Assembly: GCA_964441875.1 (NCBI GenBank)
Contig: CAYTVV010000004.1
Span: 394-64,393 of the forward strand
DNA length: 64,000 nt
Direction: 5' to 3'
Source: an uncultured Desulfurivibrio sp.
Lineage (GTDB): Bacteria; Desulfobacterota; Desulfobulbia; Desulfobulbales; Desulfurivibrionaceae
The position numbers and the translations under genes are program-made. The notes beneath the pieces are model-generated. The model ran no database searches and was not told the DNA's origin. It saw nothing but the letters and a program-made list of their open reading frames with translations. Below, in pieces: positions 6,723 to 47,703 of this stretch (position 1 is its first letter; the number at the start of each line of letters is the position of its first letter).

Positions 6723-7367
6723 GTGTACGTAACCATCATTGTGGCCAGCACCATCTGCGGACGCATCGGCCCCGGTCTTACCGGCAGCCCAGTTGACCGC
6801 AGGCTTCTCGAAAATATGCGGGAGATAACCGATGCCAGCTTGCTGGGCGCGGAAACCCTGCGCTTGGGTGACCCGGAGATGCTGGGGCTGGAGGGGCGTT
6901 TCCTGCCCAACCGGATCAGAGCTTTCATCACCGAGTCCGGCGATATCCCGGTGGTCGGGAGAAAGATCTTTGCCCAAGGGGTGGCGCCGCTTATCTTTAC
7001 CGGCGGAGCGGCAGCTGCGGAATTGCGACAGAAGCTGGGGGATCTCGCCGAGATTGTGATCCTGCCGGCCATGCCCGGGGGAGGGCTTTCCTTGGCCGCA
7101 GCCTTTGCCTATCTGGCAGAACTCGGCGCGGCCTCGGTGCTGATCGAGGGCGGCGGCCGTTTGAACTATGCCTGCCTGCGGCAAGGGGTTGTCGATGAGA
7201 TTCTCCTCACCCTGACCCCGAAACTTTCCGGCGACCAGGGAGCTGCCTCTTTGTGCGGCGGGCCTGGTCCGCTGGGTGAGCCGTTTTTGCCGCTGACCCT
7301 GGTTTCCTGCGAGGCTGCGGCAACCGGGGAGGTGTTTTTGAAATATCGGGTGGGCAAGGAGGAATGA
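6723..7367 (+). CDS. RibD C-terminal-domain / dihydrofolate-reductase-like reductase
   Basis: VTIIVASTICGRIG and LIEGGGRLNYACLRQGVVDEILLTLTPKLSG match the RibD_C fold signature. GTG start with a GGGAAGGA SD. Confidence 0.6.
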   Translation: MYVTIIVASTICGRIGPGLTGSPVDRRLLENMREITDASLLGAETLRLGDPEMLGLEGRFLPNRIRAFITESGDIPVVGRKIFAQGVAPLIFTGGAAAAELRQKLGDLAEIVILPAMPGGGLSLAAAFAYLAELGAASVLIEGGGRLNYACLRQGVVDEILLTLTPKLSGDQGAASLCGGPGPLGEPFLPLTLVSCEAAATGEVFLKYRVGKEE

Positions 7368-8119
7368 CCATGCAGCAGGACCTGGCGATCTTGTATTCCG
7401 GCGGGACCGATTCCCTTGCCCTCTATGCCCTGGCCAGCGCCGGGCATCATCCGGGCCTGGCCAGGCCGGTGCGCATCCATTTGCTCCATATGCTCAACGG
7501 CATGGGACGCTTTGCCGATTTCCCCAGAAACCGATTTTTGGTCGCGCAAAAGATTCTGCTGGCCAACGCCGCTGATTCCCAAAAAATACCGGCAGCGGAG
7601 ATGGTGGAGCTTGACATGGGCAGGTTATTCCAGGGGCTATGGCTTGATCGTTATGAAGAATACATGCCCCGCTACAACGGGAAAAATCTTGTCTGCGTGG
7701 CCTGCAAGCTTGCCATGCACGCCCGGGCCATCATCTATTGCCACGAGCATTTCGTGCCTCATTTTGTGGCCGGGTACACCAAGAAGCAGGGCCATTACCC
7801 CGAGCAGACCCCTGTTTTCATGGCAAAGATCGGGGAGCTGTCGGCCCGGTTCGGGATCAGCACCACCTTTCCGGTGTACGAGGATTTTGACGACCAGATG
7901 ATCACCCGGCATGTGCTGGAGGATTTCGGCCTGCCCTCCACGGGCGGGGGCGAGAGGAAATGCCTGTTCTGTCAGACCTTGACCACGGCAACGGAGCAGG
8001 AGATCGGCCAGTATCTGGATGACATGCTGCCACGGGTTGGCGAGTATATCGATCACCGCTTGGCCGGTCGGGTTCGTGAGGCGGCCCTGTGTTTTCCTCC
8101 TGGCAATCGGAGCATGTAG
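7364..8119 (+). CDS. PP-loop (adenine nucleotide alpha-hydrolase superfamily) ATPase, function unknown
   Basis: N-terminal ILYSGGTDSL PP-loop; Cys pairs CVAC and CLFC. ATGA overlap with the upstream reductase. Confidence 0.55.
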   Translation: MTMQQDLAILYSGGTDSLALYALASAGHHPGLARPVRIHLLHMLNGMGRFADFPRNRFLVAQKILLANAADSQKIPAAEMVELDMGRLFQGLWLDRYEEYMPRYNGKNLVCVACKLAMHARAIIYCHEHFVPHFVAGYTKKQGHYPEQTPVFMAKIGELSARFGISTTFPVYEDFDDQMITRHVLEDFGLPSTGGGERKCLFCQTLTTATEQEIGQYLDDMLPRVGEYIDHRLAGRVREAALCFPPGNRSM

Positions 8120-41159: not shown

Positions 41160-42293
41160 ATGTCTCACATGACCAAGGACTCACCATCTGCTGATGATGC
41201 AACCGGCCAACCCACCGCTTTATCACGATCCGATGAAACCCTTGGCAGTTTTTTGAAAAGGCATCGACAAAACCAGGGAAAAGAGCTCGAAGAAATTGCG
41301 GAAAAGACGCGCATTCATGCTTCAACTCTTCGGGCCATTGAGGAGGACAATCCCAAGGCTTTGCCTGCGGAGGTTTTCGCCCGTGGGTTTGTGAAAAATT
41401 ATGCGCAGTATCTTGGTCTTGATCCCAATGAGGCCTTGGCCTGGTATATCGAACAGAACGCTGGAGAAGCCAGGCCAACGGAAAAAATCAATGTTCAGGA
41501 GGTTCTTGCCGGCGAGGCCATGGCCGAGGCACAGACTTTTCCTGTGGGACGTTTCATCATCTTTTTTATTGTCGCGGGCGTCCTTTTGTTTGCCGGGTAT
41601 CTGGTTTTGAGTTTTTTAAATTCTTCCGCCCCTCCCGTCGATATCTCCACGAAAGAGACGATTCCTCAAGTTCAAGTTGAGCCGCAATCGCCGCCGACTG
41701 TTCCGGTGCCAGGCGAGCCAGGCACAGAGCCCATCGTCGGTAGCGTGGGAACAGAGCAGGCCCCGCCTGTGACGCAGAGTGGGACACAAGCTCCGGCGCT
41801 TCCCCTTCCGCTTCCGCCTGTGTCCAGCCCTGTAAAATCAGGGCCAGAAGAGAAGGCCGGGCAGGTGGAACCCCAGAAGGTTGACGGGGAACAGGGCCTG
41901 GGAATTAAAAAAAAAACAGATGACGGAAAACCAATAATTTTTCCGCAGGCTATTAAGGAAAAGCCGGTGCCGACCCCGGAGCATCAGGAGATGACCAAGC
42001 CAGCTCCTGTATCGGTTGTTGCACCAACACTTTCCACGGTAAAAGCCCCAGGGATGAATTATGTCCTTGAGGCAAAGTTTACCGAATCAACCTGGCTTTC
42101 CGTGCAGATAGACAAGGAAAAGAAAAAATCCGCCATTTACCAGCCTGGGGATCATATGGTCTGGCAGGCGGAAAAAAAGATTGCCCTTTTTGTCGGGAAT
42201 GCCGGAGGTGTCGTCCTGACGCTGAATGGTAAACCGGTTCCTTCCCTTGGCAAGTCAATGGACAGCGCCCGGATTTCCTTTCCGACTGAGTAA
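41160..42293 (+). CDS. rodZ: RodZ-like cytoskeleton protein (HTH + TM + Pro-rich linker + DUF4115-like C-terminus)
   Basis: LGSFLKRHRQNQGKELEEIAEKTRIHASTLRAIEEDN...ARGFVKNYAQYLGLD; a single TM; C-terminal ...WLSVQIDKEK...TLNGKPV. Confidence 0.7.
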   Translation: MSHMTKDSPSADDATGQPTALSRSDETLGSFLKRHRQNQGKELEEIAEKTRIHASTLRAIEEDNPKALPAEVFARGFVKNYAQYLGLDPNEALAWYIEQNAGEARPTEKINVQEVLAGEAMAEAQTFPVGRFIIFFIVAGVLLFAGYLVLSFLNSSAPPVDISTKETIPQVQVEPQSPPTVPVPGEPGTEPIVGSVGTEQAPPVTQSGTQAPALPLPLPPVSSPVKSGPEEKAGQVEPQKVDGEQGLGIKKKTDDGKPIIFPQAIKEKPVPTPEHQEMTKPAPVSVVAPTLSTVKAPGMNYVLEAKFTESTWLSVQIDKEKKKSAIYQPGDHMVWQAEKKIALFVGNAGGVVLTLNGKPVPSLGKSMDSARISFPTE

Positions 42294-42382
42294 ATGCTGA
42301 ACTCGCAAAAAAAATAAAAAAAGTCACAGGTCCGTAACTCAACAGCTAAGAGTTACAGCAGCGAAGCGGCGAAACACTAACC

Positions 42383-42428
42383 GTTGTAATCGCGGCTTTT
42401 CGAAGTCAGCGCTTATCTGCGATTTCAA
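42383..42428 (-). repeat. Family-3 intergenic repeat
   Basis: Its reverse complement TTGAAATCGCAGATAAGCGCTGACTTCGAAAAGCCGCGATTACAAC matches 52136-52181 at 40 of 46 positions. Preceded by a GTAACTC...GAGTTAC hairpin (42335-42357). Confidence 0.7.
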
Positions 42429-42449
42429 CCATAGTCACAGTGAGAGCAG

Positions 42450-43199
42450 ATGTCCTTGCAGCAAAGCCTGGCCATTGTGCTCCAGGTTAAAGACCACGGT
42501 GATTCCGACAAGATTGTCACCGTGTACACCCTGGAGCACGGCAAAGTCGTGCTCATCGCCAAGGGCGCCAAGCGCAGCAAGAAACGTTTTGTTAACAAGC
42601 TTGAGCTGTTTTCCCTCCTCTCCATCCAATTTGCCCCAAGTCGCCACAGCACGCTCATGCGTCTGGATCAGGCCGATTTGCTGGACCCTTTCCCCAGGCT
42701 GCGGGAAAACTACGAATTGTATATCGGCGCTTGCCTCCTGTGTGAACTTGTCCTGCACTGGACCAGGGAGCAAGACAGTGACGAAGAGCTTTTTCGCCTG
42801 CTTGTTTGGGCGTTGGAGGGGTTGGCCGGGGCGGGGGGGAGTGTCAACCGCACGATCATCTTCTTCCATGTCAAAATGTTGGATATCCTCGGCTATCGTC
42901 CCGATCTGACAGGCTGTCTCGATTGCCGTGTCCTTGGGGCACCTGGGGTCTTGTACCGTTTTAGTCCCCTGCGCAACGGGTTGGTTTGCAGCCGTTGTGA
43001 ACCCCAGGCCACAGCCAACTCCCAGCCGCTTTCCATCCAGACCATTCAATTGTTGCGCAGGGTTCAGGATATGGAGCAAGGGAAACTTGAACGGCTCCAT
43101 TTTTCCTTGGCGTCTACTCAGGAGGCTATTGCCCTGCTGAAACGATATGACACCCATCTGTTGCAGCGGGAGGTGCAGTCCTGGAATTTTCTGGGCTGA
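42450..43199 (+). CDS. recO: DNA repair protein RecO
   Basis: OB-fold N-terminus (VLQVKDHGDSDKIVTVYT.EHGK). Zn motif CLDC...CSRC. Confidence 0.8.
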   Translation: MSLQQSLAIVLQVKDHGDSDKIVTVYTLEHGKVVLIAKGAKRSKKRFVNKLELFSLLSIQFAPSRHSTLMRLDQADLLDPFPRLRENYELYIGACLLCELVLHWTREQDSDEELFRLLVWALEGLAGAGGSVNRTIIFFHVKMLDILGYRPDLTGCLDCRVLGAPGVLYRFSPLRNGLVCSRCEPQATANSQPLSIQTIQLLRRVQDMEQGKLERLHFSLASTQEAIALLKRYDTHLLQREVQSWNFLG

Positions 43200-43200
43200 G

Positions 43201-43347
43201 GGCAACTGTCCAGCAGCACCACATCTGCTTCGCAGTCTCGCTGTGCTCGCTTAGCTGTCATCGGCCTGCTCGTGTGCAACAGCACACTTCGCAGGCCTCT
43301 TCCGCGCATCTGTGGCAGCAGTGAAACGGCGCTGCTGAACAGTTACC
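43201..43347. repeat. Family-1 palindromic intergenic repeat, 147 bp
   Basis: Termini GGCAACTGTCCAGCAGC / GCTGCTGAACAGTTACC. It fills the gap between convergent recO and the flavoprotein gene. Confidence 0.8.
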
Positions 43348-43396
43348 GTTCTGGGACTGCCTTGGGCCGAATCGGAGAGTCCCTCGGCTCATTTGC

Positions 43397-43975
43397 TTAT
43401 TCCGCTTTGATTTTCTGGAGGAGCCAGGCCATGTTGCTTCCCAGGTCGCGCATGGTTTTCATGCCTTCCTCGTCGTTGGCCACCTCGCCTGGTTCCCTGC
43501 CGATGCCGATGTTCCAGTAGGATGAGCCCACCACGATCATCTGGCCGATGAGGAAAAAGGCGTTGAGGGAGTTGAAGACCTGAATGGCTCCGGCCCTGCG
43601 GACCGCGACCACCCCGGCCCCGGCCTTGCGTTTGAACAAATCGCCGTTGGCCCGGGAAACCATGCCGCACCGCTCGATCAGGGCCTTCATCCCTGCGGAG
43701 ACATCGGCGAAGTAGGTGGGGGAGCCCAGGAGGATGCCGTCCGCAGCGATCATTTTGGCAAGGCAGTCGTTGATGATATCTTTTTCCACGGCGCAACGAC
43801 TGTCTTTGTTCTTGAAACACTGGTAGCAGGCGATGCAGCCGGAGACCGACTGGCCTGACAACTCGACCAGCTCTGTGTCGATCCCTTGGCGAGACAGCTC
43901 TTCCAAAGCGGTATTCAGCAATTTCGCGGTGTTTCCTCCCTTGCGGGCGCTTCCGTTAAACGCGACGACTTTCAT
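43397..43975 (-). CDS. Iron-sulfur flavoprotein (Isf) / NADPH-dependent FMN reductase family
   Basis: MKVVAFNGSARKGGNT flavodoxin-like start. Compact CIACYQCFKNKDSRC cysteine cluster, as in Isf proteins. Confidence 0.7.
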   Translation of the reverse strand: MKVVAFNGSARKGGNTAKLLNTALEELSRQGIDTELVELSGQSVSGCIACYQCFKNKDSRCAVEKDIINDCLAKMIAADGILLGSPTYFADVSAGMKALIERCGMVSRANGDLFKRKAGAGVVAVRRAGAIQVFNSLNAFFLIGQMIVVGSSYWNIGIGREPGEVANDEEGMKTMRDLGSNMAWLLQKIKAE

Positions 43976-44096
43976 GGCATTCTCTCCTCATGTTTTTCCA
44001 GCTTACGGTGTCGGGGTGTTATGCGGCGTTTGGGAGTGCATCTGGCATGATATTGTAATCGAGATTGGCAAGGACAGGAAGAATTTCGAGAAAAAA

Positions 44097-44126
44097 CCAG
44101 CCGGGGAAGAGCCCCGGCTGGTTTTT
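44097..44126 (-). terminator. Bidirectional-type intrinsic terminator after the radical SAM gene
   Basis: CCAGCCGGGG-aagag-CCCCGGCTGG flanked by A6 and T5. On the minus strand a U-run follows the stem 11 nt after the stop. Confidence 0.75.
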
Positions 44127-44137
44127 GTGGGAAAAAG

Positions 44138-45529
44138 TTACTTCCAGCAGTAGGACATTTCTGTTTCGGTCCGCCAGCTGTTCCAGAGATAGGCATCCTC
44201 CCGTTGTTGGGCGATGATCCGGAAGGCATGGCGCACCTGTTCCTCAAAAAAGCTACAGTAAGGGCTCGGTGCATTGATGTCGCCGGAGACCTTGTAGATC
44301 TCGGCAGGGCAGGGCGCCCCGCAGAAATGCCTGATGGCGCAGCCTGCACAGGGGATAATTTTTTCCACCTTTCTGTTTGTTACTTCCTGGAAAGGCTTGC
44401 TGGCAAGAATATCTGCGGGATCATCACGGAAGATGTTTCCGCCGGAAAACTCGTTCATGCCGATGAATTCGCTGCACGGAACGACCTCGCCGTCCGCGGC
44501 AACGGCAAAGAAACAACGACCGCCTCCGCAGGGAGAGATGTCGCACATCAGTCTGCGGCCGGTCGGGCCGATAACCCCGGCCAGAACATTGGCGAAGTTG
44601 GCGATGACCAGCTTTCTGCCGGTTTGCTCAAAAAGCTCAAAAGAGCGGTCCAGAGCCTTGAAAAAAGCCTCGGCCAGGACATGGTTGTCTGGTTTTAGAT
44701 CCATTCCACCTTGACGTGTGCAGCGCACCGGATTGAGCATGACCACCCGCACCCCCAGCCCGTGATAAAAATCCACCATTTCAGTCAGGGTGTGCACGTT
44801 GGCTTGGGTTACGGTGGTTATGACATTGAGAGCCGGGTAATCAACGAGTTTTTTGATCACCGAGACCACGGTGTCGTAATAGCCGTTGCCCTGCCAGTTC
44901 TTTCTGGTGCGGTTGGCGACCTCTGCGGTGGGGGCGTCCAGGGATAGGCCGATGCCGACCTTGTGCTCCCGTAAAAAGCTGATTGCCGTGTCGTCGAGCA
45001 GAGTGGCATTGGTCTGGATGCCGAAATGGAAGTCGTCTTTAAAACGTGCAATCGCGGCAAACACAGCATCCCTGGCCACCATGGGTTCGCTGCCGTGGAA
45101 GATAAGCTGCGGTTTTACCCCTTCCGGCAAAATCTTCCGGAAATGTTGCAGCAGCCGTTCAAGGGCGAGCATCAGCTTTTCCTCCCCCATGTCGATGCCG
45201 TTTTTGCGCATCTCTTCGGGAAGGTAGCAGTAGCTGCAATTCAGGTTGCAGCGTTCGGTTGGGTTCACATATGCGGCGGAGAGCTTCAGGCCCGAGCGCA
45301 GGTGGTCCATTTCCGTGTGAAATTCCGCCTCGCGGGCCATGAAGTCTTGGGCCATGGAGCCAGCCAGGGCCTGGGGCAGGTCATCTCTGTCAACCAAGGC
45401 CCAGTAGGCCGTGTCCGCCTCGACAACCGCAACCCGATCAGGATCGCCGATCTCCAGCACGGAGAAATTCGGGCCATGGCCGGTATTGGCGAAAACGGTC
45501 GTTGCTGTCTGTTTGTCTGTTTGTGCCAT
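44138..45529 (-). CDS. Radical SAM enzyme with C-terminal SPASM domain (peptide-maturase type)
   Basis: ERCNLNCSYCY (CxxxCxxC). SPASM cysteines CGGGRC..VPC and CAGCAIRHFCGAPC (Cx2Cx5Cx3C). About 95-aa N-terminal extension. Confidence 0.85.
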   Translation of the reverse strand: MAQTDKQTATTVFANTGHGPNFSVLEIGDPDRVAVVEADTAYWALVDRDDLPQALAGSMAQDFMAREAEFHTEMDHLRSGLKLSAAYVNPTERCNLNCSYCYLPEEMRKNGIDMGEEKLMLALERLLQHFRKILPEGVKPQLIFHGSEPMVARDAVFAAIARFKDDFHFGIQTNATLLDDTAISFLREHKVGIGLSLDAPTAEVANRTRKNWQGNGYYDTVVSVIKKLVDYPALNVITTVTQANVHTLTEMVDFYHGLGVRVVMLNPVRCTRQGGMDLKPDNHVLAEAFFKALDRSFELFEQTGRKLVIANFANVLAGVIGPTGRRLMCDISPCGGGRCFFAVAADGEVVPCSEFIGMNEFSGGNIFRDDPADILASKPFQEVTNRKVEKIIPCAGCAIRHFCGAPCPAEIYKVSGDINAPSPYCSFFEEQVRHAFRIIAQQREDAYLWNSWRTETEMSYCWK

Positions 45530-45657
45530 TACTTGCTGCCGTCCTCTGGTGTTGTGTCCGCGCTGGGGGCGAGCAGGATATAATGGGAAAGTCCGGTTCC
45601 CTGGCCGATCAGGTTGCAGCGCCGACGGTATGAAATGATCTGTTTCTGTGCCTTCAT
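45529..45657 (-). CDS. 42-aa candidate precursor peptide (not in the supplied ORF track)
   Basis: Hand translation gives MKAQKQIISYRRRCNLIGQGTGLSHYILLAPSADTTPEDGSK. AGGAGA SD 5 nt upstream of the ATG. Stop TAA overlaps the rSAM ATG (TAATG). Confidence 0.6.
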   Translation of the reverse strand: MKAQKQIISYRRRCNLIGQGTGLSHYILLAPSADTTPEDGSK

Positions 45658-45690
45658 GGTTTTCTCCTGTTATTGTTGGTCAGTGTGCAT

Positions 45691-45728
45691 AAAAAAACCC
45701 GGAGCAACCCCATAGGAGTCACTCCGGG
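45691..45728 (-). terminator. Intrinsic terminator forming the riboswitch expression platform
   Basis: Minus strand reads CCCGGAG-(17 nt)-CTCCGGG followed by U7. It lies between the aptamer and the SD of the small ORF. Confidence 0.7.
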
Positions 45729-45784
45729 TTCTGTTTCCATTAGAATACCCAGACGAACAGCAATACAAACGTGCGAAACATTAT

Positions 45785-45942
45785 CACCAGGTCTTCTGAC
45801 TTTCGGATCGTCTGCTGGTCGGCGGTCTTCCCCCCACAGTGATACGCTCTGGGAGTGACCGGGAAATTCCCTGTGCTGACCAGCATCCCCGATTACAGCG
45901 GCGGGACCGCCACGGATTTACACCGTGTTCCGGGATGATGAA
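45785..45942 (-). promoter_or_regulatory. Cobalamin (B12) riboswitch aptamer
   Basis: Minus strand reads GGUGUAAAUCCGUGGCGGUCCCGCCGCUGUAA ... AUCACUGUGGGGGGAAGACC ... B12 box AAGUCAGAAGACCUGG. Order and spacing are as in Rfam RF00174 members. Confidence 0.8.
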
Positions 45943-45961
45943 ATGCTTATTCTTTTTTGCT

Positions 45962-45990
45962 TTTAAACCCTTTTTCCCCTGGCTTGTCAA
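45962..45990 (-). promoter_or_regulatory. Sigma-70-like promoter for the riboswitch transcript
   Basis: Minus strand reads TTGACA-N17-TTTAAA, ending about 20 nt upstream of the aptamer. Confidence 0.45.
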
Positions 45991-46187: not shown

Positions 46188-46271
46188 GCGAGAGTGGCGG
46201 AATTGGTAGACGCACTGGTCTTAGGAACCAGCGCCTTTGGTATGGGGGTTCGACTCCCCCCTCTCGCACCA
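46188..46271 (+). tRNA. tRNA-Leu (anticodon TAG)
   Basis: Acceptor GCGAGAG/CTCTCGC, anticodon loop CTTAGGA, long variable arm, T-loop GTTCGACTC, encoded CCA. Confidence 0.9.
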
Positions 46272-46407
46272 ACAAGAAAACAGCTCCGGCTCGAAGGCCG
46301 GGGTATAGGCAAATATCTCATCCATACCGTGAGGCGAAAATCTCGAAGACGTTCCTTTACGGTATGACTGTGTTGTTGAAAAAAGTTTGAAACAAGGAAG
46401 GTGTTGC

Positions 46408-47703
46408 ATGCAGATCAATGTCGAAGATGTCAGCCCGCTTACCAGAAAAATGACTATCACCCTGCCGGAAGCCCAGGTTGCCCAGGAGTTGGAGTCCGCC
46501 TATAAGAAACTGAACTCTGAAGTTTCACTGAAGGGGTTTCGCAAGGGGAAGGTGCCCCGTCAGGTGCTGGAAAAAAATTATCGGCCAAAGATTGAGTATG
46601 ACTTGGCGGAGAAGTTGATCCAGGATACCTATTTTGACGCCCTTGAGAAAAGCAAGATCGACGCGGTTGTGCATCCGGATATCCGTGAACAGAAATTTGC
46701 CGAGAACGGCACCTTTGTCTACACTGCGGAGGTGGATGTTCGGCCCCAGTTCGAATTGGCTGAGTATAAGGGCCTTGAGATCGAACAGGCCGCGCTTGAG
46801 GTGACGGACGAGGAGATTTCCCAGGAGCTTGAGGTGCTGCGCAAGCAGATGGCTCCCCTGCAAAGCGTTGAAGACCGCGCCATTGAGGCCGGGCACTTGG
46901 CGGTGGTTGATTTTCAGGGGTACCATAACGGCAACCCCCTCAAACAGGTGGTTGGAGAAAATTATTCGGTTGAGGTGGGGAGCGGCCAGAACGGAAACGA
47001 GTTTGAAGAAAAACTTCTTGGCCTGAAAAAAGGCGAGGAAACTTCTCAGGAGATAGATTTTCCGGCAAACTTCGCCAATCCGATCCTGGCAGGCAAGAAG
47101 GTGGAGTTCAAGCTCAATGTCAAGGATGTCAAGGAACGGCTGCTGCCTGCTCTTGATGACGAATTCGCCAAGGAAGTGGGCGAGGACTTTGCCAGCCTGG
47201 AGGCGCTCAAGTCCCATATCCGTGAAAAAAAGCTACAGGCCAAGAAGGACGCCCAGCGTGGCGATCTCACCGATAAGTTGATGCGGGTATTGATCGAAAA
47301 CCATGATTTTGAGATTCCGCCTCGGCTGGTGGCCTATGAAATAGAGGCCATGATCAAGGAGCTTGAAAGCAACCTGGAACGGCAGGGGATGACTCTGGAA
47401 GCTGCCGGGTTCAATCGGGACGCCCTGATTGAGCAATATAAGCTTGCGGCGCAGGCACGGGTCAAGGGCGATTTCCTTTTGAAGAAGGTCGCGGAAAAGG
47501 AAGGGCTCAAGCTGGAAAATGAAGACATCGACAAAGGCTTTAAACGCATCTCCGAACAGTACAACATGCCGGTCAGCGAAGTGAAAAAATATTTTTCCAG
47601 CCGGGATGACCTGCTGCCGTTCATGGCGGAGCTGCTGAACGAAAAAATCTTAAGTTTTCTGCTTGACGCAGCCAAGATGAAAACCGTGCCGGCTGCTGCC
47701 TAG
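46408..47703 (+). CDS. tig: Trigger factor
   Basis: MQINVEDVSPLTRKMTITLP...GFRKGKVPRQVLEK. AAGGAAGG SD. Confidence 0.9.
   Translation: MQINVEDVSPLTRKMTITLPEAQVAQELESAYKKLNSEVSLKGFRKGKVPRQVLEKNYRPKIEYDLAEKLIQDTYFDALEKSKIDAVVHPDIREQKFAENGTFVYTAEVDVRPQFELAEYKGLEIEQAALEVTDEEISQELEVLRKQMAPLQSVEDRAIEAGHLAVVDFQGYHNGNPLKQVVGENYSVEVGSGQNGNEFEEKLLGLKKGEETSQEIDFPANFANPILAGKKVEFKLNVKDVKERLLPALDDEFAKEVGEDFASLEALKSHIREKKLQAKKDAQRGDLTDKLMRVLIENHDFEIPPRLVAYEIEAMIKELESNLERQGMTLEAAGFNRDALIEQYKLAAQARVKGDFLLKKVAEKEGLKLENEDIDKGFKRISEQYNMPVSEVKKYFSSRDDLLPFMAELLNEKILSFLLDAAKMKTVPAAA

What the first reader, a model, noticed from the sequence alone, without database searches (positions are those of the whole stretch)
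44138..45990. Cobalamin-riboswitch-gated precursor-peptide + radical SAM/SPASM cassette
Reading the minus strand from 45990 to 44138 gives, in order:
- a TTGACA-N17-TTTAAA promoter-like pair
- a ~160-nt element carrying the hallmark cobalamin riboswitch blocks
- a stem-loop plus U7 terminator
- a strong AGGAGA SD
- a 42-codon ORF missing from the ORF track
- a 463-aa radical SAM enzyme overlapping that ORF's stop in TAATG, with CxxxCxxC and a full SPASM cysteine array

A small ORF next to a SPASM rSAM is the classic RiPP precursor/maturase logic. B12 riboswitches normally gate B12 synthesis or uptake, or B12-independent isozymes. A peptide-modification cassette in that regulon is therefore unexpected and hints at a peptide product linked to corrinoid or cobalt physiology.

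I have an unverified recollection of a TIGRFAMs model pair nicknamed 'cobopep' (CbpA/CbpB), defined on a similar context in Deltaproteobacteria. Even if this locus belongs there, I know of no product structure, chemistry or role.
Basis: partly seen in the sequence, partly recalled or inferred. Interest (0 to 1): 0.85.

Follow-up and report, generated by a model that had tools for sequence, protein, structure and literature searches.

The report
B12-riboswitch-gated CbpA/CbpB peptide-modification cassette
A vitamin-B12-sensing RNA switch controls a tiny peptide gene and the radical-SAM enzyme that modifies it; the pair belongs to a database-curated but never characterised family (CbpA/CbpB) that is tied to B12 uptake and salvage genes across bacteria, so its product probably acts in B12 physiology, although neither its chemistry nor its role is known.

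Summary
These are a TTGACA-N17-TTTAAA promoter, an RF00174 cobalamin riboswitch (69.6 bits, cutoff 31.5), an intrinsic terminator with U7, an AGGAGA Shine-Dalgarno site, a 42-codon ORF, and a 463-aa radical SAM/SPASM enzyme overlapping it in TAATG. The enzyme is an equivalog-level match to NCBIfam TIGR04163 (CbpB; 676 bits, cutoff 375). The peptide hits only TIGR04164 (CbpA), below its cutoff.

The riboswitch-peptide-enzyme module is conserved in 29 of 29 intact related Thermodesulfobacteriota loci, while the flanking genes are not. In divergent CbpB clades (Nitrospirota, Omnitrophota and others), cbpAB either keeps a leader riboswitch or sits inside riboswitch-headed cob/btu salvage and transport operons. 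Of 29 such loci with long flanks, 26 show a B12 link. An archaeal-clade locus has the peptide but no riboswitch.

The family-wide invariant residues in the peptide are one Cys and G-L-[ST]-H-[YF]. The enzyme model most resembles the thioether synthase CteB.

The locus is a new member of a known, uncharacterised kind. The B12-OFF regulation is well supported. The proposed thioether crosslink and the corrinoid-handling role are inferences. I found no publication on the family.

The parts
45962..45990 (-). Sigma-70-like promoter: TTGACA (45990-45985), 17-nt spacer, TTTAAA (45967-45962)
   Evidence: Read directly from the sequence. A TTGACA box at the equivalent position recurs in leaders of other lineages. 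Not called by the generic scan. Function not tested.
45791..45931 (-). Cobalamin riboswitch aptamer (RF00174), with B12 box AGUCAGAAGACC at its 3' end; a P1-like pairing extends to about 45945 and 45780
   Evidence: cmscan 69.6 bits against GA 31.5, E 4e-15. Homologous hits occur in the same position in 28 related loci, plus one that is partly masked.
45730..45790 (-). Expression-platform linker with a GGG-containing hairpin (candidate P13/L13) and the invariant motif C..AUGG.AA
   Evidence: Alignment of 17 leaders. In nascent-RNA folds the GGG segment pairs with the CCCGG of the terminator's 5' arm in 9 of 15 leaders. Its role as kissing loop or antiterminator is inferred.
45691..45732 (-). 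Intrinsic terminator (attenuator): 18-bp hairpin over about 45732-45694 whose base pairs with the first four U of the U7 run (45697-45691)
   Evidence: Found by the scan. MFE -29.1 kcal/mol. The hairpin is conserved, with 9 of 15 pairs showing double compensatory changes.
45663..45668 (-). Shine-Dalgarno AGGAGA, 5 nt upstream of the cbpA ATG
   Evidence: Sequence.
45529..45657 (-). cbpA: 42-aa precursor peptide MKAQKQIISYRRRCNLIGQGTGLSHYILLAPSADTTPEDGSK
   Evidence: ORF. Its only NCBIfam hit is TIGR04164, 25.9 bits, below the 35-bit cutoff. Core conserved in 25 loci with pN/pS 0.07. A CbpA-like ORF occurs upstream of 75 of 76 divergent cbpB genes.
44138..45529 (-). cbpB: 463-aa enzyme with an RRE-like N-terminal domain, a radical SAM core and a SPASM domain
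   Evidence: TIGR04163 676.2 bits against cutoff 375. Pfam Radical_SAM and SPASM. AF2 model pLDDT 85.9. Best fold match is CteB 5why/5wgg over the full length. Invariant cysteines mapped.
44092..44126 (-). Intrinsic terminator ending the two-gene operon
   Evidence: MFE -27.2 kcal/mol, 15-bp hairpin whose base pairs with part of the T run. It separates cbpB from the FMN-reductase gene (43397-43975), which is syntenic only in close relatives.

Best explanation
This is a self-contained, B12-repressed two-gene operon, cbpA-cbpB, belonging to the curated but uncharacterised CbpA/CbpB ('cobopep') family.

Shown:
- A cobalamin riboswitch with an intrinsic terminator lies between a promoter-like pair and the cbpA Shine-Dalgarno site.
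- cbpA encodes a short peptide under strong purifying selection.
- cbpB encodes an enzyme with a CteB-like architecture (RRE-like domain, radical SAM core, SPASM domain) and cysteines for three Fe-S clusters.
- The module, and in other phyla its embedding in cob/btu operons, is conserved.

Inferred, regulation: when a corrinoid (probably adenosylcobalamin) is bound, the aptamer holds the GGG loop of the platform, the terminator forms and transcription stops before cbpA. When B12 is scarce, the GGG segment pairs with the CCCGG arm of the terminator and the operon is read through.

Inferred, chemistry: CbpB docks CbpA through its N-terminal domain. It uses the 5'-deoxyadenosyl radical to install an intramolecular crosslink. 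The most likely product is a thioether from the single invariant Cys (Cys14) to a carbon of the invariant G-L-[ST]-H-[YF] block (Ser24 or a neighbour), giving a ring closed by two residues 10-13 positions apart in the window peptide.

Inferred, role: the mature peptide acts in corrinoid acquisition or handling during B12 limitation, possibly by binding a corrinoid through the invariant His. No dedicated protease or exporter was found next to the 18 stand-alone loci examined or in the L034 operon.
For: Regulation:
- RF00174 hit at 69.6 bits.
- Terminator plus U7 between aptamer and Shine-Dalgarno site, structurally conserved with covariation.
- Riboswitch directly upstream of cbpA in 28 Rfam-confirmed loci plus 1 partly masked, out of 29 intact related loci.
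- In the reporter study PMC9600662, all 38 functional Cbl riboswitches repressed and 37 had terminators.

Peptide as substrate:
- pN/pS 0.07.
- A CbpA-like ORF precedes 75 of 76 divergent cbpB genes.
- The only NCBIfam hit is CbpA.

Enzyme:
- TIGR04163 at 676 bits.
- Full set of cluster cysteines.
- Good-confidence model (mean pLDDT 85.9) with an N-terminal three-strand plus helix domain.
- Top fold and sequence matches are the thioether synthase CteB, followed by anSME and ChlB.

Thioether guess:
- Cys and GL[ST]H[YF] are the only family-wide invariant peptide residues.
- In the closest structural relative, CteB, the crosslink runs from a Cys to a Thr (my recollection of the CteB literature; the review read states only that CteB installs gamma-thioethers).
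- PapB- and NxxcB-type enzymes make thioethers from single Cys residues (PMC9389541).

Corrinoid role:
- 58 of 80 divergent-clade loci, and 26 of 29 with at least 3 kb of flank on both sides, carry a leader riboswitch, an operon-head riboswitch, or same-strand CbiB/CobU/CobT/CobA/BtuFCD/TonB-receptor neighbours.
Against: - No modification, ligand response or phenotype has been measured.
- The crosslink type cannot be read from homology. Scores to DynA, PapB, QhpD, HxsB, anSME and the SCIFF maturase are all similar (108-139 bits) and far below their cutoffs.
- CbpB has five candidate ligands for auxiliary cluster I (C329, C334, C339, C352, C407). The open coordination site that I recall being reported for CteB may therefore be absent.
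- The Cys-to-GLSH spacing varies from 5 to 7 residues.
- The antiterminator pairing appears in only 9 of 15 nascent folds.
- In the window's own lineage no B12 gene lies nearby.
- L033 (archaeal clade) and L035 lack a riboswitch.
- Three long-flank loci show no B12 link.
- No export or cleavage machinery was identified, so the site of action is unknown.
Confidence: 0.6

Rival explanations
1. B12-sparing substitute. The modified peptide, or a small molecule cut from it as with PQQ or mycofactocin, replaces or bypasses a B12-dependent function. It would be repressed by B12 for the same reason as metE or nrdDG.
For: B12-OFF control of B12-independent alternatives is an established regulon category (PMC545781; PMC3766115). 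In Thermodesulfobacteriota the module is stand-alone with unrelated flanks. The peptide is as strongly conserved as cofactor precursors tend to be.
Against: In other phyla cbpAB lies in the middle of uptake and nucleotide-loop-assembly operons, not next to isozymes. No partner processing enzymes of the PqqB/C or MftD/E type accompany it. No redox-active residue pair such as Glu/Tyr or Val-Tyr is conserved.
Confidence: 0.12
2. Secreted corrinoid- or cobalt-scavenging peptide (a 'corrinophore'). By analogy with the copper-binding RiPP methanobactin, it would be recaptured through the TonB-dependent receptor and BtuFCD encoded in the same operons.
For: TonB-dependent receptor and BtuFCD genes share the operon with cbpAB in many loci. 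A riboswitch-driven TonB receptor directly follows cbpB in L055 and L095; in L038 a riboswitch also follows cbpB but is cut off at the contig end. The invariant Cys and His are classic cobalt ligands (my own knowledge).
Against: There is no signal peptide, no Gly-Gly leader motif, and no exporter or leader peptidase in the cassette or in the 18 stand-alone loci examined. The peptide is 31-55 aa and very basic.
Confidence: 0.12
3. The small ORF is not the substrate. It would be a regulatory upstream ORF, and CbpB would act on a protein or small molecule, for example a step in corrinoid or lower-ligand biosynthesis.
For: The cbpB position between cobU/cbiB and cobT/cobA is typical of a pathway enzyme. 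SPASM enzymes such as anSME act on proteins.
Against: Amino-acid-level purifying selection, pN/pS 0.07. The motif is conserved from archaea to Nitrospirota regardless of how the operon is regulated. The enzyme has an RRE-like peptide-binding domain. The curated family definition treats the two genes as a pair.
Confidence: 0.08
4. An ordinary bioactive RiPP (antimicrobial or signalling) whose link to B12 reflects nutrient-stress regulation only.
For: Most characterised rSAM/SPASM RiPPs are antimicrobials or signals (PMC9389541). Its closest structural relative, the SCIFF maturase CteB, belongs to a system that, from my own knowledge, is likewise a conserved two-gene cassette of debated function.
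Against: The B12 link recurs in two independent genomic arrangements across phyla. Antimicrobial cores usually diversify, whereas this one is nearly frozen. There are no immunity or export genes.
Confidence: 0.08

Closest known systems
NCBIfam TIGR04163 (rSAM_cobopep, CbpB) and TIGR04164 (cobo_pep, CbpA)
   Same: The enzyme passes the equivalog cutoff (676 against 375 bits). The peptide's only hit is CbpA. Gene order is the same, and NCBI and JGI use the same names for homologs.
   Different: The peptide scores 25.9 bits, under the 35-bit cutoff, as do all sister peptides tested. The window lineage has a longer Cys-to-GLSH spacer and an acidic C-terminal tail. The family has a name but no known product, chemistry or role.
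SCIFF system (ScfA/ScfB; CteA/CteB, PDB 5wgg/5why)
   Same: CteB is the best sequence and fold match, aligned over the full length including the N-terminal peptide-binding domain. It also has three Fe-S clusters, and it is a thioether-forming enzyme. From my own knowledge, SCIFF is also a two-gene cassette with a short, highly conserved peptide and no protease or exporter.
   Different: Identity is only 21-22%. The score to the SCIFF maturase model is 107.8 against a cutoff of 425. CbpA has one Cys; from my own knowledge SCIFF peptides have six, occur in Clostridia and have no riboswitch or B12 context. CbpB carries extra upstream cysteines aligned with anSME's full ligand set.
Single-thioether rSAM maturases PapB and NxxcB, and QhpD
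   Same: SPASM enzymes that link one Cys sulfur to a side-chain carbon of a nearby residue (PMC9389541). PapB and QhpD are the second- and third-ranked below-cutoff NCBIfam hits after DynA.
   Different: Their acceptors (Asp, Glu, Asn) are not conserved in CbpA. Scores are far below family cutoffs.
Anaerobic sulfatase-maturating enzyme (anSME, PDB 4k36-4k39)
   Same: Second-best structural match. C329 and C339 align with anSME's auxiliary-cluster-I Cys255 and Cys261 (residue numbers from my recollection), and C352 aligns with a Cys shared by anSME and CteB.
   Different: From my own knowledge, anSME oxidises Cys or Ser to formylglycine in a C/S-x-P-x-R sulfatase motif, which is absent from CbpA. 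anSME aligns only from residue 91 on, so it has no counterpart of the N-terminal RRE-like domain.
Canonical cobalamin-riboswitch regulon (btuB, cob/cbi, cobalt transporters, metE, nrdDG)
   Same: Same RNA family, and a terminator-type platform that is expected to repress.
   Different: Published regulon categories are biosynthesis, B12 or precursor transport, cobalt transport, and isozymes of B12-dependent enzymes (PMC3766115; PMC545781). A RiPP-like cassette is not among them.
Methanobactin (MbnA/MbnBC with TonB-dependent MbnT) - functional analogy only
   Same: A ribosomal peptide modified to serve metal or cofactor acquisition and encoded with a TonB-dependent receptor (my own knowledge). 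cbpAB shares operons with TonB receptors and BtuFCD.
   Different: The enzymes are unrelated (MbnBC is not a radical SAM enzyme). CbpAB has no exporter and no evidence of secretion or metal binding.

Membership tests
Rfam RF00174 cobalamin riboswitch | Covariance-model score at or above the gathering threshold (31.5 bits) | tested here: met
   69.6 bits, E 4e-15, best in clan CL00101. Only model positions 47-167 aligned.
Rfam RF00174 cobalamin riboswitch | Conserved B12 box and placement in a 5' leader with an expression platform | tested here: met
   AGUCAGAAGACC at the 3' end of the aptamer. Terminator and U7 lie before the Shine-Dalgarno site.
Rfam RF00174 cobalamin riboswitch | Binds a corrinoid and changes expression | not testable with these tools
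   Needs in-line probing or ITC, and a reporter assay. Repression is inferred from the terminator-type platform and from PMC9600662.
NCBIfam TIGR04163 CbpB | HMM score at or above the curated cutoff (375 bits), full length | tested here: met
   676.2 bits, profile positions 2-428 of 428.
NCBIfam TIGR04163 CbpB | Radical SAM CxxxCxxC plus the SPASM seven-Cys array | tested here: met
   C94/C98/C101, and C339, C352, C394, C397, C403, C407, C425. All are invariant in 25 homologs.
NCBIfam TIGR04163 CbpB | Encoded next to a CbpA peptide gene | tested here: met
   cbpA ends inside the TAATG overlap. The same pairing occurs in 25 related loci and in 75 of 76 divergent loci.
NCBIfam TIGR04164 CbpA | HMM score at or above the curated cutoff (35 bits) | tested here: not met
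   25.9 bits, E 5e-6, and the only family hit. All 10 sister peptides next to bona fide CbpB also score 20-32 bits, so the cutoff appears too strict for these lineages. By the curated criterion alone, membership is not established.
NCBIfam TIGR04164 CbpA | Conserved core motif and position immediately upstream of CbpB | tested here: met
   The motif [SA]-[YFI]-[RH]-x-x-C-x(4-7)-G-L-[ST]-H-[YF] is shared from the archaeal clade to Nitrospirota. JGI names homologs 'modified peptide precursor CbpA'.
RiPP (ribosomally synthesised, post-translationally modified peptide) | The peptide is actually modified by the neighbouring enzyme | not testable with these tools
   Needs co-expression and mass spectrometry.
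RiPP maturase with an RRE-type recognition domain | N-terminal three-strand sheet plus helices ahead of the catalytic domain | tested here: inconclusive
   The model shows strands 22-26, 32-37 and 42-47 and helices 48-56 and 58-80 at pLDDT about 90. The CteB match spans the full length. No dedicated RRE profile was run.
Sactipeptide or ranthipeptide (thioether) systems | Donor Cys in the peptide and a Cys-to-carbon thioether formed by the rSAM enzyme | tested here: inconclusive
   One invariant Cys is present and the closest structure is a thioether synthase. However, the SCIFF, PapB and QhpD model cutoffs are not met, and the bond itself cannot be tested here.
RrrB-type Arg-Tyr crosslinked peptides | Conserved Arg and Tyr partners in the core | tested here: not met
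   Tyr10 becomes F, I or C, and the RRR run becomes RLK, HMK, RYT or RME in other clades.

The most novel reading that the evidence does not exclude
The mature CbpA peptide is a corrinoid-binding factor, which would be the first RiPP dedicated to vitamin B12 trafficking. The CbpB-installed ring would present the invariant His (and possibly the Cys sulfur) as an axial cobalt ligand. The peptide could then capture, protect or hand over incomplete corrinoids such as cobinamide between BtuFCD and the CobA/CobU/CobT/CbiB salvage enzymes when B12 is scarce.
Probability: 0.22. Interest if true: 0.85.

Novelty: new member of a known kind. Interest (0 to 1): 0.55.

Why it matters
Published cobalamin-riboswitch regulons contain four kinds of genes: B12 synthesis, B12 transport, cobalt transport, and B12-independent isozymes. 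A peptide-modification cassette would be a fifth kind. Here it is tied to B12 in two independent ways. In some lineages it has its own leader riboswitch. In others it is embedded in salvage and transport operons. It occurs across several bacterial phyla and an archaeal clade.

Corrinoid acquisition shapes many anaerobic communities, so a conserved, unexplained component of these operons is a concrete and directly testable open question. The precursor is short, the enzyme is a single polypeptide, and co-expression with mass spectrometry should reveal the chemistry.

There is also a practical point. The curated peptide model misses all 11 peptides tested here, so the peptide gene is routinely left unannotated.

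Tried and rejected
- RrrB-like Arg-Tyr crosslink in YRRR: rejected, because Tyr10 and the Arg run are not conserved in other clades.
- Resemblance of RRRCNLIG to what I recall of the NrdD glycyl-radical motif: dropped. As far as I recall, the residue that would correspond to the radical Gly is Asn here, and CbpB is a SPASM enzyme rather than a glycyl-radical activase. No database similarity was found.
- A window-specific antiterminator, aptamer GUCACUCC pairing with GGAGUGAC in the terminator arm: by eye it is not conserved in other lineages, so it is not adopted.
- The downstream FMN-reductase gene as a third cassette member: rejected. A strong terminator separates it, and it is syntenic only in close relatives.
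- L021 (Geoglobus, 36% identity) as an ortholog: rejected. It has no peptide and no riboswitch, and proteins at about 30% identity fall below the CbpB cutoff.
- Deciding open versus closed auxiliary cluster I from alignments to CteB and anSME: inconclusive.
- Literature searches for cobopep/TIGR04163/TIGR04164, for cobalamin riboswitch with SPASM and precursor peptide, and for RiPP with corrinoid terms found nothing on this family. One search failed on phrase length.
- Two B12-regulon reconstructions do not mention the cassette.
Full report
**Observation**

Reading the minus strand from 45990 to 44138 gives, in order:
- TTGACA (45990-45985), a 17-nt spacer and TTTAAA (45967-45962).
- An RF00174 cobalamin riboswitch at 45931-45791, 69.6 bits against a gathering score of 31.5, E 4e-15.
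- An 18-bp hairpin (about 45732-45694) that runs into a U7 tract (45697-45691), found by the scan and folding at -29.1 kcal/mol.
- AGGAGA (45668-45663).
- A 42-codon ORF (45657-45529).
- A 463-aa ORF (45529-44138) overlapping it in TAATG.
- A second strong terminator (-27.2 kcal/mol).

The generic promoter scan did not call the promoter. However, a TTGACA box at the same relative position recurs in leaders from other lineages.

**Identity of the two genes**

The enzyme matches NCBIfam TIGR04163, 'peptide-modifying radical SAM enzyme CbpB' (model name rSAM_cobopep), at 676.2 bits against a cutoff of 375. It carries Pfam Radical_SAM and SPASM domains. The peptide's only hit in NCBIfam is TIGR04164, 'modified peptide precursor CbpA', at 25.9 bits, below the 35-bit cutoff. 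NCBI and JGI give homologs the same names.

Ten sister peptides that sit next to bona fide CbpB genes also score only 20-32 bits. The peptide model is too strict for these lineages, which explains why gene callers and annotators usually miss the small ORF.

**Conservation in close and mid-distance relatives**

The closest loci are Desulfurivibrionaceae and other Desulfobulbales MAGs at up to 98% identity, so the window most likely comes from that group. I examined genome loci L001-L023 and contexts L024-L032, which include Thiovibrio, Desulfoferrobacter, Syntrophobacteraceae and Desulfobacteraceae at 58-79% identity.
- A cobalamin riboswitch lies directly upstream of cbpA-cbpB in 28 Rfam-confirmed loci. 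L019 adds one more, where the aptamer is partly masked by N but visibly present. That makes 29 of 29 intact loci.
- L020 is truncated. L021 (Geoglobus, 36%) is not an ortholog. L023 is a remnant in which the promoter, riboswitch and cbpA are gone and cbpB is reduced to a fragment.
- Flanking genes differ completely between lineages, and no protease or exporter accompanies the pair. The unit is an autonomous riboswitch-peptide-enzyme module.
- The FMN-reductase gene downstream in the window lies behind the terminator and is syntenic only in close relatives.

**The peptide is a real, constrained product**

Across 23 distinct nucleotide versions of the core, pS is 0.51 and pN is 0.036, a ratio of 0.07. 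In this clade the invariant residues are Y10, R11, R13, C14 and G22-L-S-H-Y-I27. There is exactly one Cys and no Trp, and the net charge is +3 to +11.

**The leader**

Seventeen diverse leaders share these elements:
- the aptamer;
- the B12 box;
- an invariant C..AUGG.AA motif;
- a GGG-containing segment;
- a hairpin followed by a U run.

The hairpin differs in sequence between lineages but keeps its pairing; 9 of 15 pairs show double compensatory changes. When the platform is folded without the terminator's 3' arm, the conserved CCCGG of the 5' arm pairs with the GGG segment in 9 of 15 leaders.

This fits a standard model. The GGG loop would kiss the aptamer's CCC loop when a corrinoid is bound, letting the terminator form. 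Otherwise it would act as an antiterminator. That step is inferred. In a published reporter study, all 38 functional cobalamin riboswitches repressed expression and 37 had intrinsic terminators (PMC9600662).

**The enzyme**

An AlphaFold2 model built with 25 homologs has mean pLDDT 85.9. It shows an N-terminal three-strand sheet plus helices (residues 22-80) ahead of the radical SAM barrel and the SPASM domain.

The best structural and sequence match is CteB, the thioether-forming SCIFF maturase (5why/5wgg). It aligns over the full length. The next matches are anSME, the triceptide maturase ChlB, TigE, SuiB and SkfB.

Invariant cysteines are C94/C98/C101, the seven SPASM cysteines, and C329 and C334. 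C334 aligns with a CteB cysteine. C329 and C339 align with two anSME cysteines, which I recall as its cluster-I ligands Cys255 and Cys261. Whether auxiliary cluster I has an open site cannot be decided from sequence.

**The wider family**

At 50% clustering the family is compact.
- Clusters at 40-54% identity (P0147, P0151-P0154, P0160) still pass the CbpB cutoff. Proteins at about 30% identity do not.
- A profile of the divergent clusters finds CbpB-named proteins in Nitrospirota, Omnitrophota, Bacillota and Methanomassiliicoccales-type archaea.

Three context look-ups gave different arrangements.
- L034 (Nitrospirota): two tandem cobalamin riboswitches head an operon reading TonB-dependent receptor, CbiB, two amidotransferase-like genes, cbpA, cbpB, a second rSAM, BtuF, BtuC, BtuD, CobA/BtuR, CobU, an unknown gene and CobT.
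- L033: its enzyme is 72% identical to a CbpB annotated from a Euryarchaeota archaeon. It has a peptide (…MCRMECKVDGNGLSHYIIYDE…) but no riboswitch.
- L035: a peptide and no riboswitch.

**Survey of 80 further divergent-clade metagenome loci**

- A CbpA-like ORF precedes cbpB in 75 of the 76 loci that have more than 200 nt of upstream sequence.
- Across all clades the invariant peptide features reduce to one Cys, a 4-7 residue spacer, and G-L-[ST]-H-[YF]. Tyr10 and the Arg run are not conserved. This argues against an RrrB-type Arg-Tyr link (precedent in PMC9389541).
- A profile of the aptamers finds a same-strand riboswitch in the cbpA leader of 13 loci, and 4-7 kb upstream at an operon head in 12 loci. 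All 12 that I re-tested with Rfam were confirmed at 42-116 bits.
- Three loci carry a riboswitch right after cbpB; in L055 and L095 it precedes a TonB receptor, and in L038 it is cut off at the contig end.
- tblastn with the L034 proteins finds same-strand CbiB, CobU, CobT, CobA/BtuR, BtuF or BtuC homologs next to cbpAB in 38 loci, and BtuD alone in 5 more.
- Overall, 58 of 80 loci show a B12 link. Among the 29 loci with at least 3 kb on both sides, 26 do. Most of the rest are short contigs.

**What it most likely is and does**

Shown: a B12-riboswitch-controlled operon encoding a conserved short peptide and a CteB-like rSAM/SPASM enzyme. It is a member of a curated family whose genomic association with corrinoid salvage and uptake holds family-wide.

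Inferred:
- repression by corrinoid through premature termination;
- modification of CbpA by CbpB;
- a single thioether from Cys14 to the GL[ST]H[YF] block, based on the invariant residues and the nearest structural relative;
- a role in corrinoid acquisition or handling when B12 is scarce.

The invariant Cys and His are the two classic protein ligands of cobalt (my own knowledge). That makes direct corrinoid binding an attractive but untested idea.

Rivals are a B12-sparing cofactor or substitute, a secreted scavenger, an enzyme with a different substrate, and an ordinary bioactive RiPP. Each is weighed in the rival section of this report.

**Comparison with what is known, and novelty**

The locus is a new member of the CbpA/CbpB family and not a new kind of system.
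- No paper in the searchable library mentions cobopep, TIGR04163 or TIGR04164. None links a cobalamin riboswitch or corrinoid genes to a RiPP cassette.
- Two B12-regulon reconstructions list only biosynthesis, transport, cobalt uptake and isozymes.
- I could not read the NCBIfam family description. The model name suggests that its curator already noted a cobalamin-operon context (my inference).

The interest lies in the open question. The system is conserved, experimentally tractable and B12-linked, and nobody knows what it makes or why.

Noticed in passing
window 45529-45657 (-); peptides of L015-L032: The curated TIGR04164 (CbpA) cutoff of 35 bits is missed by all 11 peptides tested (20-32 bits), although each lies next to a CbpB scoring far above its own cutoff. 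As a result the peptide gene is mostly uncalled or labelled 'hypothetical' in public annotation.
   Followed up: yes
L023:5700-6334: In one close relative the promoter, riboswitch and cbpA are absent and cbpB is reduced to a fragment of about 334 nt beside the same tRNA gene. The cassette has been lost in that lineage and so appears dispensable.
   Followed up: partly
L033:5730-5860: The archaeal-clade locus has no riboswitch. It carries two near-identical palindromes (GTTGG..ATACATCCAAC) just upstream of cbpA, possibly a protein operator. cbpB is followed by a 2x[4Fe-4S] ferredoxin and a PrsW-like protease.
   Followed up: no
L034:411-1081 and 7352-8071: Two tandem cobalamin riboswitches (88.8 and 52.9 bits) head the Nitrospirota cob/btu operon. 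A second, 239-aa radical SAM gene directly follows cbpB. Homologs of the operon's Diphthami_syn_2-family (PF01902) gene recur near cbpAB in 11 metagenome loci.
   Followed up: partly
L055:8301-8514; L038:8343-8430; L095:1226-1500: A cobalamin riboswitch lies immediately downstream of cbpB. In L055 and L095 it precedes a TonB-dependent receptor gene; in L038 it is cut off at the contig end. This is a third type of B12 adjacency.
   Followed up: partly
window 45730-45790 (-) and alignment A1: An invariant C..AUGG.AA motif and a GGG-containing segment lie between the aptamer and the terminator in 17 leaders. These are candidate P13/L13 kissing-loop and antiterminator elements. CCCGG at the base of the terminator stem is also conserved in nearly all leaders.
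   Followed up: partly
L032:1827-2038 (-): A second, stronger cobalamin riboswitch (108.9 bits) sits on the opposite strand ahead of Peripla_BP_2 and FecCD (BtuF/BtuC-like) genes, about 3.5 kb from the cbpAB leader.
   Followed up: no
L027:7607-12861; L028:7815-13392: In two related loci a PP2C-type phosphatase gene lies directly downstream of cbpB. A RACo-type reductive activator of corrinoid proteins lies 3.5-5 kb further on.
   Followed up: no
L057:2999-3117: A convergent pair of Acido-Lenti-1 sRNA matches (RF01687, 45-50 bits) lies about 2 kb upstream of a riboswitch-led cbpAB.
   Followed up: no
window 41160-43975 and 46188-47703: Flanks of the cassette are housekeeping genes unrelated to B12. 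They are an FMN reductase (43397-43975, -), RecO (42450-43199, +), a RodZ-like protein (41160-42293, +), a tRNA (46188-46268, +) and trigger factor (46387-47703, +).
   Followed up: yes
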